DNA from: Eledone cirrhosa
Lineage: Eukaryota
DNA length: 64,000 nucleotides
Assembly (NCBI GenBank): GCA_964016885.1
Contig: OZ024740.1
Span: forward strand, 98,270,001-98,334,000
Direction: 5' to 3'
Below are positions 36,377 through 47,998 of this stretch, piece after piece; the stretch's first letter is position 1; each line of letters opens with the position of its first letter. Under the pieces are notes generated by a model, which was not told where the DNA came from, ran no database searches, and saw only the letters and a program-made list of their open reading frames with translations. The position numbers and the translations under genes are program-made.

Positions 36377-36383
<7 letters not shown>

Positions 36384-36797
36384 AAAGATCAAAAGATGGT
36401 TAAAGGAGTTACATGTATTTTATTATGCGCATTTCAAAAACAAACATCATCATGCAATAATATTTGTGTTTTCATCAGATAAAACAGGAGAACATGATAT
36501 GAAGGCTAAAAAACACTTGTGGATAGTGCAGTTTTAAATCAACATATCAAAACTGCACTATCCACAAGTGTTTTTTAGCCTTCATATCATGTTCTCCTGT
36601 TTTATCTGATGAAAACACAAATATTATTGCATGATGATGTTTGTTTTTGAAATGCGCATAATAAAATACATGGAACTCCTTTAACCATCTTTTGATCTCA
36701 TATATTATGTATACTCCAGTCCTACAAACTGTAGAGTGCTTCTTATCCGATATCTGCATTGCTTTATTGTACTACAATAAAACTCACCTCCTACATC
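36377..36797. repeat. Palindromic cassette (~160-bp arms), intact HHR in each arm, plus ~90-bp extension
   Basis: TTTTAT CTGATGA AAACAC...TGTTTTT GAAA TGCGCA TA ATAAAA at 36600-36666 (+) and 36418-36484 (-). Confidence 0.9.
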
Positions 36798-36819
36798 ATA
36801 TATATATATATATGAGGGT

Positions 36820-38945
36820 GTTAAAGTTTGCTTGAAGCATTGTGAAATGTGTAAAATACGTAGTTGAGAAAGCCACAACAATGCAGAGGGAAATCTCGAG
36901 GTAGGAAGTGAATGATAGATAGGAGAAACAGGTGAAAGTGAAAATTGAGAGAGACAAAGATGAAAACAAAACAAAGGTAGAAGGGTTACCGTAGTGGAGA
37001 TTTAATCCCAATATTTCGGGCTCACGCCCATCAACGGGGGAAAGTTCCAAAAGGGGGGGAACAGGCCAAGCGGAGAAAGTTGTGATGTCGTTAAGACAGG
37101 AATGCCGTTATGGGGAGAAAATTATTTAAAATTTAAACGAGGGAAAGAATGCGCGTGCGCGTGATAGGCTGTGGCAAAAGCTACTGACCAAATGGGTTAA
37201 ATCAAGAGGGTGCGCTAGCGTGTGAAAGCCGTAAAATATGTGTGTGTAAATATATATGTGTGTGTAACTGTGTGTGTATAAGTGTAAGTGTGTATATGTG
37301 TGAGTGTGTGTGTGTGTGAAAGATAGTGGGCTGTAGAAGCTGGAAATCAAAGGGTGTGAAAGGTGGTAGGTTGTAAAACATGTGTGCGTGTATAAATATA
37401 GATGTGTGTGTGTAAGCGTATGGGTATACATGTGTGTGTAACTGTGTGTGTATATGTGTGAGTACGTGTGTGTGTGAAAGATAGTGGGCTGTAGAAGCTG
37501 GAAATCAAAGGGTGTGAAAGGTGGTAGGTTGTAAAAACATGTGTGCGTGTATAAATATAGATGTGTGTGTGTATGCGTATGGGTATGCATATACGTGCGT
37601 GTGTGTGAAGATAGCAGGCCGTAGGCTGTGAAAGGTCACTATGGTTAAGTTAGCCATGTCAGCTCATTTCTCTCAGCCCGGTTGTTAAGTGGGGGTCTGA
37701 GGTTCTTAATAACAAGTGCTTCCTTTATCCTTAAGGATCCGATGCTGCGTTCAGTCGCTAGGACTGTGACCAAGGGTCTACCCTGTGGGTTTCCGCATTT
37801 AAGGATGTGTTTACGGAAGGAAGATGCGTTGGTGTTGATATGTTCCTTGATACGAACATGTAGGGGTCGGATGGTGCTACCTATGTAAAACTTGTTACAT
37901 TTATCGCATTGAATCTTATATACGACATAGGTGCGTAGGCAATCTGCCCCCGTATCGGGCAGTTGCTGAGGGAACACGTCCCATCTGACTCGTCGGGTTT
38001 GTTGGAGAGGCATCTTCGCAGCGAAGGTCCTGTGTGGGCCAAATGTATGTCAAGTCCCTCCGTCCGTATGGCCCTGCGGATGGCGTTCGTGGTAAATTCA
38101 CTCAGGTGGGGGATTTTAAAGAAGCACCTGCTTTTATTTAAGTTTCTAGTGGGTGTCTGTCTATTGGGTCTGGGGTCTCTAATTCCGTTAATCAGTCGCT
38201 TGGGATAACCATTAGATCTGAGTAGATTACGGAATTGCGTAGTATGGGTGAGACCACCCATCGGGTCGCTGCATCTGTTAGTTATCCGTGTCAGTTCATT
38301 TAGGACATAGCCTCTCTCAGCGTTGTTGGGGAGGGCTGAGTTATAATGCACAAATAAGTCCTTGCACGCTGCTTTGCGGTAGAAGGTGGTGTTTATGTCT
38401 CCTTCTTCCGAGATGTTGGTACAGAAGTCGAGGAGGGCGAGTGACCCGTCTTCTCCTGGGTGTTCGATGGTGAAATCGACGTGATGGTCAGTATCGTTGA
38501 AGATTTGGTGAATTTCATTCGCCATCTCCCGGGAAGAAGTAAGTATCAGGATATCATCAACGTATCTGGAGTAGAAAGCGACGGCGTTGGGTTGGCAGGT
38601 ATTGAGTGCCTTGCGTTCCAGGTGGTCCATGTACGAGATCGCAAGTATGCCGGATAGACTAGAGCCCATAGGTAGCCCAGAGATTTGTTTGTACGTGTGG
38701 CCGAGGAAATTGAAGAGTGCATTATCCACAACGAAGGAGAGGAGTTGGTGGATGTCCGTGTGTGTGAGTCCGAAGCAGTGTAAGTTAGATGCTCGGACTC
38801 GTTCGGTCAACAGGTCGACAGCTGGGGATGCTGGTACGGAGGTATAAAGGGCCACCACATCAAGACTGAAGGCATAACCGTTGTCCTTTCTGGTGTTGGG
38901 CGCCAGATGGTGTAGTCGCTCCAAGACCTCCTTTGAGCTGCAGAC
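36820..38945 (-). mobile_element. Penelope-like element (RT + GIY-YIG, one frameshift), 5'-truncated
   Basis: [74 protein letters not shown]; ~158-bp tandem repeat in the 3' UTR; degenerate HHR-like at 37007-37040. Confidence 0.93.
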
Positions 38946-39023
38946 GTAGGCTGGTAGTGTGTGTAGAATATATATATATATGTAGAATATATATATATAT
39001 ATATATGTGTATATATATATGTA

Positions 39024-39084
<61 letters not shown>

Positions 39085-39404
39085 AGAGAGAGAGAGATTT
39101 GTTTTTTTCCGGGTATGTCAATATTTATTTAGGTATGAGCAGTCAGTTTATAAAAATAAAAATAGAATCTACACACAGAAAAGATACAATGTTTAGACAA
39201 ATCACAGAGGCAATAAACATAAATAAACTCCAACCAAAATTAAATAGAAAGCATGGATAGAATAGCAACATCACACCTTACAATTAAGGACAACATGAAA
39301 ACACACACACATATAGAACAAACAACCAACCAGTAACATGTAAATAAACAAATATAAACACACACAGACACCCGGATGTAACACGTGCGCAAACTAAGCA
39401 CACA

Positions 39405-39732
39405 ACACACACAAAAAGAAGATGGCGTAGGACAGAACAAAGGAGAGGCACAAAAACAAAGAAAATAATCCCAGTCACTGAAGAGGTCACATAATGTGTG
39501 ACGAAAGAACTTTGACAATATATGAACAATCGTCTGGTTGTGGAAACAACCAACCAACCGGAAATTTATAAATTCCTAAATTTATAAATTTAATTTATAA
39601 TAAATTGAAGTGACAGTTATTGGTGCATGTGTTTCTTATTGGCAACATGACCCTCCCAAAGTATAACAATATCGGTTTCAACACACGTTTTCAGATAAAG
39701 AATCTTGCTAAACAAATTCAGAAACGAAATAT
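39405..39732 (+). repeat. pLTR-like cassette with minimal HHR (39474-39516)
   Basis: Near-identical to 20985-21230. Confidence 0.8.
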
Positions 39733-39744
39733 ATATAATATATT

Positions 39745-40785
39745 TATATCATCATCATCATCATCATCAACGTTTAACGTCCGTGTTCCACGCTTGCATG
39801 GGTTTGGACGGGGGTAGTCCCACTTGAGGCAAGAGTGATTGTCTTGCTCGCATAGGACTGTCTGGCAGGTTTTCTACAGTTGGATGCCCTTCCTAACACC
39901 AACCACATTTACAGTGTGGGTCTGGGAGGTTTTTACCGTGTTGCCTACACGGCCACATTACAGCGTGGACTGTGTGTTTTTTTGTCGTGACACCTACACG
40001 ATCTCATTTGTTTCGGCCTGGATGGCGCGGCACCAACATAACTTTACATAGAACGGGGTGGTGTGGATGGGGTGGGGGTGGCGGCGGGAGGGGTGTATTT
40101 GTTAGATATGCCTACTGGCAAGGCGGGTCTTCTCTGTTACTGAGTACCGCCAAAGGTCACGGTCCAGTGACATTGTCTTGGAGAGGTGTAAGTGTGTGAG
40201 GTCGGAGTTTATCAGCTCATCCCATGTTTTTCTAGGTCTGCCTATTCCGTGGTTACCGTCTATCTTTATTGCCCTGCACTTTGTAATACAGCTATCGACT
40301 TTCATGCGCATCACGTGTCCATACCAACGCAGCCTTCTCTCGAGTAAACAACATCTGATCCCTCTTATCTCTAATTTTTTCCTTAGTTCGTTTATGCTTT
40401 GCCGTTCACGTATATTACTGTTACACATCCAGCGGAGCATGCAAGCTTCGTTCCTCTCTAGTCTGCGTATATCCTCTGCACACAATGCCCATGTCTCACT
40501 ACCATGCAACATTGCTGTTCGTATGCAGGCATCGTACAACCTGCCTTTCATTTTTAGGGAGAACCCTTTAGCAGCTAATAGTGGTATAAGCTCTCTGAAC
40601 TTTTTCCAACCAGTTCTGACTCTAGCTACAGTACTTTCAGAGCACCCTCCCCCACTGCTGATTTTATCGCCCAGGTAACGGAAGCTGTCCACTATTTCTA
40701 TAGAACCCTCTGCGCAATTGAAAGAGCTAGTATTTTGTGGGCACTTGCTGCTACTTATTGCACCAGAACACCGGCCACATGTAAA

Positions 40786-40790
<5 letters not shown>
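39745..40790 (-). mobile_element. RTE LINE 3' end, closely similar inverted counterpart of 42705-43870
   Basis: ORF 40857-40102 FRYLGDKISSGGG...GRPRKTWDELINSDL; tail. Confidence 0.92.
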
Positions 40791-40816
<26 letters not shown>

Positions 40817-41243
40817 AGATGACCTGGTATGAGGTGATAAAAGCCGACCTTACCCAATTACACCTCTCAAAGGTGATGACACACAACCGTGACCTCTGTC
40901 GTCACGCAGTAATACAGAGTACCCGACCTCCCATGGGTACAAGCTGAATCATATAGACAATATGACCCCCCCCCCCCACTGTAAGGTGGTCGTGGAGATG
41001 CCACGGCAAAAAGCACCCAGCCCACACTGTAAAGTGGACGTGTGGGCGCCACGAAAAAGCACCCAGCACTCACTGTAAATGAGATTGGTGTTTGAAGGGC
41101 ATCCAGCTGTAGAAATCAAGCCAAATCAGTTCCTGTATGAGCAAGGCATGGTCAGCCGACCAGACACTGCCCACAACAGGACAACCCGTCTAACCCATGC
41201 TGGCGTGGAAGAACGGACGTAAAACGGTGATGATGATGATGAT

Positions 41244-47068: not shown

Positions 47069-47074
47069 ACGTAT

Positions 47075-47119
<45 letters not shown>

Positions 47120-47247
47120 AGCAGGGAAATGTGGTCGAAAAATGATGAAGATGATGATGATGTATACATATATACATCATCATCATCTTCATCATCTTTC
47201 GTCCACATTCCCCTGCTTGCATATATATGCATATATATATATACTCA

Positions 47248-47290
<43 letters not shown>

Positions 47291-47294
47291 TATC

Positions 47295-47390
<96 letters not shown>

Positions 47391-47416
47391 TATATATATA
47401 TATATATATACATGTA

Positions 47417-47468
<52 letters not shown>

Positions 47469-47489
47469 CATATATATATATAGATATAA

Positions 47490-47575
<86 letters not shown>

Positions 47576-47583
<8 letters not shown>

Positions 47584-47994
47584 AGAACAGAAGATGGTTA
47601 AAGGAGTTCCATGTATTTTATTATGCGCATTTCAAAAACAAACATCATCATGCAATAATATTTGTGTTTTCATCAGATAAAACACGAGGACATGATATGA
47701 AGGCTAAAAAACACTTGTGGATAGTGCAGTTTTAAATCAACATATATATATATAACTGCACTATCCACACGTCTTTTTTAGCCTTCATATCATGTCCTCC
47801 TGTTTTATCTGATGAAAACACAAATATTATTGCATGATGATGTTTGTTTTTGAAATGCGCATAATAAGATACATGGAACTCCTTTAACCATCTTCTGTTC
47901 TTATATATTATGTATACTCCAGTCCTACAAACTGTAGAGTGCTTCTTATCCGATATCTGCATTGCTTTATTGTACTACAATAAAACTCACCTCC

Positions 47995-47998
<4 letters not shown>
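47576..47998. repeat. Second copy of the 36.4-kb palindromic HHR cassette
   Basis: HHRs at 47616-47682 (-) and 47803-47869 (+); same extension ending AAACTCACCTCCTACAT. Confidence 0.9.

What the first reader, a model, noticed from the sequence alone, without database searches (positions are those of the whole stretch)
36377..47998. Same palindromic twin-hammerhead cassette at two loci with nearly the same architecture
Seen: 36377-36797 and 47576-47998 have the same outer ends, ~160-bp arms, similar fold-back points and the same ~90-bp extension. Locus-specific variants are mirrored in both arms (GATCAAAAG versus GAACAGAAG; GAGAACATG versus GAGGACATG). Inference: each palindrome was built by copying one arm at insertion, or arms are homogenised; either way it behaves as a discrete small mobile unit with an HHR on both strands.
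Basis: partly seen in the sequence, partly recalled or inferred. Interest (0 to 1): 0.75.

Follow-up and report, generated by a model that had tools for sequence, protein, structure and literature searches.

The report
Penelope insertions copied from both ends
These two mirror-image cassettes are stub-sized insertions of a very abundant Penelope-type jumping gene, not a separate mobile unit; each likely formed when both cut ends of the target DNA copied the element's RNA up to its predicted capped start and then joined back to back.

Summary
Observation confirmed; interpretation mostly not. Each cassette is two head-to-head copies of the pseudo-LTR of an autonomous Penelope-like retrotransposon (PLE) with Hydra-clade motifs (800-aa ORF; 9,923 exact hammerhead cores genome-wide), inserted in (TA)n. 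Of 53 head-to-head pairs sampled by position, 46 have one tailed and one tail-less arm, and spans run from 247 to 5,301 bp; the ~420-bp form is the mode of a continuum. The 'locus-specific' variants are subfamily markers: arms within a locus differ by 0.81%, same-haplotype arms at other loci by 0.80%. In 24 of 46 pairs each arm holds sequence the other lacks, so neither was copied from the other. At least 4,746 of 12,419 arms begin at one base, usually preceded by a G the element does not template (G 2,329, T 1,758, A 659), as expected if a capped RNA 5' end is copied. Likely mechanism: priming from both target ends on sense RNA from one source, run-off at the RNA start, end-joining. No RNA data were available. 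Inverted 5' copies, tails and hammerheads are published PLE traits; the scan noted this mechanism before on other DNA of this genome.

The parts
36343..36377 (.). (TA)n target, left flank of locus A
36378..36547 (-). Locus A tail-less arm: pseudo-LTR from P1 (36547) to the TA-rich short end (about P170; exact end blurred by TA)
36416..36486 (-). Type I hammerhead motif, predicted cut between 36424 and 36423
   Evidence: activity not tested
36548..36548 (-). Junction base: G on the minus arm where the element has C and the partner arm offers none; cap-copy candidate
   Evidence: hit at G000:C1:98306529-98306548
36549..36796 (+). Locus A tailed arm: pseudo-LTR from P13 plus ~90-bp tail ending CCTACAT
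36598..36668 (+). Type I hammerhead motif, predicted cut after 36660 (AUA triplet)
   Evidence: activity not tested
36704..36796 (+). Tail: start of the element's 5' UTR; continues into the ORF in full copies L107, L079, L112, L101
47221..47576 (.). (TA)n target, left flank of locus B
47577..47745 (-). Locus B tail-less arm, P1 at 47745; hammerhead motif 47613-47685
47746..47753 (.). 8-nt TA filler at the head-to-head junction of B
   Evidence: (read directly)
47754..47999 (+). Locus B tailed arm from P15; hammerhead motif 47801-47871; tail 47907-47999
27120..30267 (-). Degraded long copy of a sister PLE family: RT-endonuclease ORF remnant (28319-30267, up to 76% aa identity over 233 aa to the L074 protein) ending in an 82%-identical pseudo-LTR with hammerhead (27163-27232); inverted ORF piece at 30340-30504(+)

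Best explanation
Both cassettes are the shortest common insertion product of an autonomous Penelope-like retrotransposon with Hydra-clade motifs, and each likely forms when both cut ends of a (TA)n target prime reverse transcription on the element's sense RNA, run toward its predicted capped 5' end and are joined head to head. Shown: the arm sequence is the pseudo-LTR of an element with an 800-aa RT + GIY-YIG-like ORF; insertions are head-to-head pairs with one tailed end (P260) and one short end (about P170) in TA runs; arms are independently 5'-truncated, of one subfamily, and pile up at P1 with an excess of untemplated G. Inferred: the endonuclease cuts both strands; the two ends are the two RT initiation sites; P1 is the transcription start; the G is the copied cap; joining is by microhomology or filler synthesis; the RNA comes from one source element (one molecule copied twice, or two). 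The hammerhead is a passenger here: it is read through, would need a dimer through its self-complementary stem III, and would be buried in a ~160-bp hairpin in any read-through transcript.
For: Full copies: pseudo-LTR, tail, 5' UTR, ORF, 3' UTR, pseudo-LTR in L107, L079, L101, L112; open 800-aa ORF in L074 with RLRWTA, DKT, YRDD, CxCx5C, CxxC, CxH; 18 homologues at E<=1e-20 share these motifs, 8 aligned. Sample: all first 100 listed matches, fetched as 60 regions: 121 arms, 106 in 53 head-to-head pairs; 46 tailed+short, 5 tailed+tailed, 1 short+short, 1 cut; 3 of the 5 tailed+tailed pairs (L079, L101, L112) are the inner pseudo-LTR of a full element whose outer ends are again one tailed, one short. 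3' ends: 61 at P259-260, 56 at P176-178 of 121; 110 of 121 outer flanks are TA-rich. Spans 247-5,301 bp. Short arm reaches further 5' in 24 pairs, tailed arm in 8, within 10 nt in 14. Same haplotype in both arms in 29 of 31 fully scored pairs, 18% expected. Base before P1 genome-wide: C 7,673 (5,065 with the element's own upstream), G 2,329, T 1,758, A 659; among 49 junctions explained by neither template nor partner, 19 have G against 8% local background. Published parallels: PAc cuts and extends both strands and starts RT at two sites bounding the tail (PMC11167929, parts 1-2 of 4 read); promoter inside the pseudo-LTR (PMC2377424, passages); extra G at full-length L1 5' junctions reflects the cap (PMC11702581, passages).
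Against: No RNA evidence that P1 is a start site or capped. In the position-sampled subset alone the G excess is weak (4 of 19 untemplated junctions). Some G arises from partner microhomology (7 of 26 in my loci) or from repeated ATATG re-priming. P1 lies in a CATATG palindrome and ATAT matches the target, so microhomology also favours this point (14 junctions overlap at CATATG). In 19 of 53 pairs both arms extend into the 3' UTR, which needs one RNA region copied twice or two RNAs; I cannot tell which. The tail is ~90 nt, longer than the published 30-40 nt. Pfam found no domain in the ORF pieces of L039, and no phylogeny with named Hydra proteins was built.
Confidence: 0.75

Rival explanations
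1. Self-priming or fold-back: one cDNA arm snaps back and copies itself (first reader's 'copying one arm'; self-priming on an antisense template was proposed for PLE palindromes in PMC3846280).
For: Arms share the subfamily haplotype in 29 of 31 pairs; in 22 of 46 pairs the tailed arm is as long or longer at the 5' side, which fold-back allows; 5 locus-private variants occur in both arms.
Against: In 24 of 46 pairs the tail-less arm has 5' sequence the tailed arm lacks, often hundreds of bases (L083, L113, L120, L125), while lacking the tail. Junctions carry filler and G next to both arms (L004, L086).
Confidence: 0.1
2. P1 is not a transcription start but a joining hotspot: two cDNAs made from a longer RNA anneal at the CATATG palindrome or at ATAT in the target.
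For: CATATG is palindromic and kept in the sister family; 14 fetched junctions overlap exactly there; 2,608 arms have C before P1 without the exact upstream motif.
Against: P1 ends are also joined to many unrelated partner positions (P13, 18, 111, 165, 222, and joints in contigs of run X1); G before P1 is 3.5 times commoner than A although A is about 42% and G 8-10% of junction filler.
Confidence: 0.15
3. The ~420-bp palindrome is a non-autonomous unit (SINE- or retrozyme-like) that is itself transcribed and re-inserted.
For: 25 of 53 pairs are pseudo-LTR only and 16 of 53 span 410-440 bp; two junction types recur (L080/L084, L115/L124).
Against: The other centres all differ; L115 and L124 share a junction but not a haplotype; B-haplotype loci have various centres, none B's, and 5 run into the 3' UTR; no head-to-tail monomer arrays in the 60 regions.
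Confidence: 0.05
4. Arms were homogenised after insertion by gene conversion or hairpin repair.
For: 5 locus-private variants in both pseudo-LTR arms; 9 shared rare variants in 3,906 overlapping ORF columns.
Against: Within-locus divergence equals same-haplotype between-locus divergence; 26 private variants in one arm only and 21 arm differences in ORF overlaps. Shared rare variants are expected from rare source copies.
Confidence: 0.04
5. The palindromes are assembly or long-read fold-back artefacts.
For: Palindromes are a known artefact class (general knowledge).
Against: Arms differ by 3-4 substitutions and have unequal ends; contigs of public run X1 show 13 listed joints from 36541-36547 to varied places in the other arm; X1 may be the same sample as the assembly.
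Confidence: 0.01

Closest known systems
Hydra clade of C-terminal EN+ Penelope-like elements (Craig et al. 2021, PMC8557442; passages, section 11, supplement part 2 of 59 read)
   Same: RT then C-terminal endonuclease; RW and DKT motifs, CxCx5C linker, CxxC and CxH, hammerhead, (TA)n targets; inverted 5'-truncated copy and one-sided tail described for PLE insertions. A cephalopod member, Hydra-1_Obim, is listed there.
   Different: Longer element (about 3.7-4.1 kb with pseudo-LTRs vs <3 kb); RWT/RWI instead of RWK; ~90-nt tail; long stem II and AUGCGCAU stem III, unlike the listed Hydra-1_oBim hammerhead; about 10,000 arms.
PAc (Poseidon, Anolis carolinensis) in vitro mechanism (Frangieh et al. 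2024, PMC11167929; parts 1-2 of 4 read)
   Same: Both strands cut and extended, AT-rich target, two RT start sites that bound the tail, hammerhead not needed for insertion.
   Different: Different clade; in the parts read, later steps are left open and head-to-head joining or a fixed 5' stop is not shown; here the tail lies in the 5' UTR, not the ORF.
Minimal hammerheads of metazoan PLEs (Cervera and de la Pena 2014, PMC4209133; parts 1-2 of 4 read)
   Same: Type I motif in the pseudo-LTR, long helix II, palindromic helix III for dimer folding; pairs on opposite strands 100-700 bp apart already reported.
   Different: A10.1-U11.1 rather than the usual G-C (G-C in the sister family); activity untested here.
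Adineta vaga Penelope insertions (Arkhipova et al. 2013, PMC3846280; passages)
   Same: Head-to-head inverted pseudo-LTRs with palindromic junctions and an optional tail on one.
   Different: That paper favours self-priming on an antisense template; arm anatomy and the G at P1 here favour two primings on sense RNA.
LINE-1 twin priming and cap-derived extra G (PMC11702581; passages)
   Same: Second target end primes RT, giving an inverted 5' piece; extra G at full-length 5' ends.
   Different: L1 twin-primed pieces are non-overlapping parts of one RNA; here both arms cover the same region and start at two fixed sites.
Animal non-LTR retrozymes (bioRxiv 10.64898/2026.07.22.740005; abstract and outline only)
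   Same: Hammerhead-bearing, related to PLE pseudo-LTRs.
   Different: Retrozymes are head-to-tail arrays of a monomer; these are single head-to-head stubs of a coding element.

Membership tests
EN+ Penelope-like element | Single ORF with RT and C-terminal GIY-YIG endonuclease linked to this repeat | tested here: met
   800-aa ORF in L074 with YRDD and LIY-x13-YFG, directly upstream of the same pseudo-LTR; motif-level, Pfam gave no hit on L039 pieces
EN+ Penelope-like element | Partial tandem forming pseudo-LTRs | tested here: met
   L107, L101
EN+ Penelope-like element | Inverted 5'-truncated copy and one-sided tail | tested here: met
   46 of 53 pairs; tail ~90 nt rather than 30-40
Hydra clade | DKT in place of DKG | tested here: met
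   SDKT at residue 122
Hydra clade | CxCx5C linker, CxxC and CxH in the endonuclease | tested here: met
   residues 659, 759, 787
Hydra clade | RWK motif | tested here: inconclusive
   RLRWTA or RLRWIA here; RWK at this column in 7 of 8 aligned homologues
Hydra clade | (TA)n insertion and hammerhead | tested here: met
   110 of 121 outer flanks TA-rich; motif
Hydra clade | Phylogenetic placement with named Hydra RTs | not tested
   No named Hydra protein was available as a stored sequence
Type I hammerhead ribozyme | Conserved core, stems I-III, NUH site | tested here: met
   common variants fall in loop 2 or keep pairing (G-U/A-U), sister family has G-C for A-U at the base of stem II
Type I hammerhead ribozyme | Self-cleavage | not testable with these tools
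   Stem III needs a dimer (duplex -10.5 kcal/mol); no sampled solo arm starts exactly at the cut (nearest P128, P130)
Non-LTR retrozyme | Head-to-tail array of a hammerhead monomer | tested here: not met
   None in 60 regions
Non-autonomous unit that moves as a palindrome | Shared centre junction among related copies | tested here: not met

The most novel reading that the evidence does not exclude
The thousands of head-to-head stubs are a genome-scale record of the Penelope insertion reaction: two priming events, one at each of two fixed RNA sites, on capped sense RNA from one source, which would replace antisense self-priming as the origin of PLE inverted ends and map the transcription start to one base.
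Probability: 0.55. Interest if true: 0.62.

Novelty: new member of a known kind. Interest (0 to 1): 0.45.

Why it matters
How PLEs build inverted ends and one-sided tails is left open in the papers read (PMC8557442, PMC11167929, PMC3846280). This young family gives exact predictions: RNA start at P1, RT starts at P260 and about P170, both strands primed, sense template. Copies with an open ORF exist, so the model can be tested in vitro. The insertions also seed thousands of near-perfect 150-bp or longer hairpins, possible double-stranded RNA sources if transcribed. The cassette itself is not a new element.

Tried and rejected
Arm-specific G/T variant at P137: looked recurrent in the hits to A's left arm but was not among the common variants of the position-sampled set; an effect of the query. 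Rfam: no hammerhead family; sub-threshold microRNA hits reflect the hairpin only. Pfam: no domain on the L039 ORF pieces. RNA: no RNA holder listed. Empty site: contigs of 4 runs did not cover the left flank, so no test. Copying from hammerhead-cut RNA: inconclusive. Paper searches with no relevant result: Penelope + twin priming + inverted + target-primed (1 unrelated review), Penelope + retrotransposon + untemplated G + cap (0), Penelope-like + head-to-head + pLTR + reverse transcription (0); subscription journals are not covered, and the supplement of PMC8557442 was cut and read only in part.
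Full report
Observation. Both cassettes exist as described. They align at 95.3% over 425 columns and each is an inverted repeat of about 158 bp per arm with a one-sided extension. Arms differ by 3 (A) and 4 (B) substitutions within a locus and 5-8 between loci. A hammerhead descriptor finds the motif on both strands of both loci, and nothing in 10 shuffles. Rfam reports no hammerhead and the motif does not fold better than shuffles, so the call rests on the intact core, the stems and structure-compatible variation. Flanks are not shared.

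What the sequence is. An exact 29-mer of the hammerhead core occurs 9,923 times in the genome, with 0 for the reversed control. [quoted passage not shown] L074 holds an open 800-aa frame; L107, L079, L101 and L112 show pseudo-LTR, tail, 5' UTR, ORF, 3' UTR, pseudo-LTR. The 90-bp extension is therefore the PLE tail, the start of the 5' UTR. The protein has DKT, CxCx5C, CxxC and CxH, the features given for the Hydra clade with (TA)n targeting and hammerheads (PMC8557442); RWK is RWT or RWI here. The window itself holds a degraded long copy of a sister family at 27120-30267.

Population anatomy. I fetched all first 100 listed matches (contig 1, 0.5-56.6 Mb) as 60 regions. This sample is unbiased by similarity to A or B but favours young copies with one intact core. 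It has 121 arms, 106 of them in 53 head-to-head pairs; 46 pairs have one tailed and one short arm. Spans run from 247 to 5,301 bp, with 16 between 410 and 440. Twenty-five pairs are pseudo-LTR only and 19 have both arms reaching into the UTR. The cassette is the mode of a continuum, not a separate element.

Across 38 pairs with at least 100 comparable columns, arms differ by 0.81% within a locus, 3.7% between loci overall and 0.80% between loci of the same haplotype. Both arms share the haplotype in 29 of 31 fully scored pairs against 18% expected. Locus-private variants lie in one arm 26 times and in both 5 times. B's variant is present at 22 other fetched loci, 5 of them UTR-linked, with centres unlike B's. 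So mirrored variants mean common source, not conversion. In 24 of 46 pairs the tail-less arm reaches more than 10 nt further 5' than the tailed arm, the reverse in 8 (sign test p = 0.007). A (P1 vs P13) and B (P1 vs P15) are of this type, though by only 12-14 nt, which a small deletion could also give. Where each arm has sequence the other lacks, neither is a copy of the other.

The fixed 5' point. Thirty-five of 63 arms that do not reach the UTR start at P1 by alignment (some alignments may extend by microhomology). Genome-wide, the base before P1 is C 7,673 (5,065 with the element's own upstream), G 2,329, T 1,758, A 659, so at least 4,746 of 12,419 arms (38%) begin there. G is 3.5 times A although junction filler is about 42% A and 8-10% G. 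In my loci 19 of 49 junctions explained by neither template nor partner have G; 7 further G come from partner microhomology, and the position-sampled subset alone gives only 4 of 19. Locus A has this G (36548). An extra G at full-length 5' junctions marks cap copying in L1 (PMC11702581), and the Penelope promoter lies inside the pseudo-LTR (PMC2377424). TTCATA around P1 fits an initiator consensus (recalled, from no call). The CATATG palindrome at P1 also promotes joining (14 overlap junctions), so both effects probably act.

Mechanism. Shown: two fixed outer ends, TA targets, independent truncation, common subfamily, P1 pile-up, G excess. Inferred: the endonuclease cuts both strands of (TA)n; each 3' end primes RT, one at P260 and one near P170, as for the two start sites and two-strand extension of PAc (PMC11167929); copies of the 5' pseudo-LTR run off at the capped start and give stubs such as A and B, copies of the 3' pseudo-LTR truncate at random; the two cDNAs join head to head. 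Whether one RNA is copied twice or two RNAs are used is open. The hammerhead is read through; in a read-through transcript the cassette folds as one hairpin (-261 and -257.5 kcal/mol) that would bury it.

Comparison and novelty. Inverted 5' copies, tails, (TA)n targets and opposite-strand hammerhead pairs 100-700 bp apart are published, and a cephalopod Hydra family is listed. What adds value is the count-based case for two-ended priming on capped sense RNA, against the antisense self-priming proposed in PMC3846280. Three searches found no paper making this case, within the limits of the library. The scan's earlier notes report the same reading on other DNA of this genome; I had reached it and run the first G count before reading them, and they are not independent evidence. 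No RNA holder was listed, so start site, cap and cleavage remain untested.

Noticed in passing
window 27120-30504: Degraded long copy of a sister Hydra-like PLE family with its own pseudo-LTR, hammerhead (G-C at the base of stem II) and an inverted ORF piece; 20 related loci show the same tailed/short head-to-head anatomy and CATATG boundary.
   Followed up: partly
window 35955-36050: Short palindrome in (TA)n that folds back in what looks like stem II of another hammerhead (GAAAC...GTC half only); a related copy precedes the arm in L024.
   Followed up: no
window 7517-7813, 33890-34050, 47066-47280, 48127-48224, 52537-52737: Further self-palindromes of 98-298 bp, several in TA runs; probably other PLE stubs.
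   Followed up: no
window 36815-37230: Right flank of locus A looks like the 3' part of another repeat with a degenerate hammerhead-like stretch on the minus strand near 36990-37050.
   Followed up: no
window 32311-33871; 40117-40674 with 42807-43364: Long inverted repeats of 356-558 bp at 95-100%.
   Followed up: no
window 56690-56762: Weak tRNA match, 35.4 bits; possibly a tRNA-derived SINE head.
   Followed up: no
L074 ORF, residues about 575-655: An 80-residue Asn/Pro/Thr-rich insert between RT and endonuclease absent from 8 homologues, recalling the Asn-rich inserts of Adineta Penelope elements (PMC3846280).
   Followed up: no
L042:5965-8647; L039:2-466: Other Hydra-like PLE families with CxCx5C lie near the fetched copies; the clade is diverse in this genome.
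   Followed up: no
L101; L020/L021; L060/L068: A 9-kb double element in head-to-head form, and locally duplicated insertions that share a junction.
   Followed up: partly
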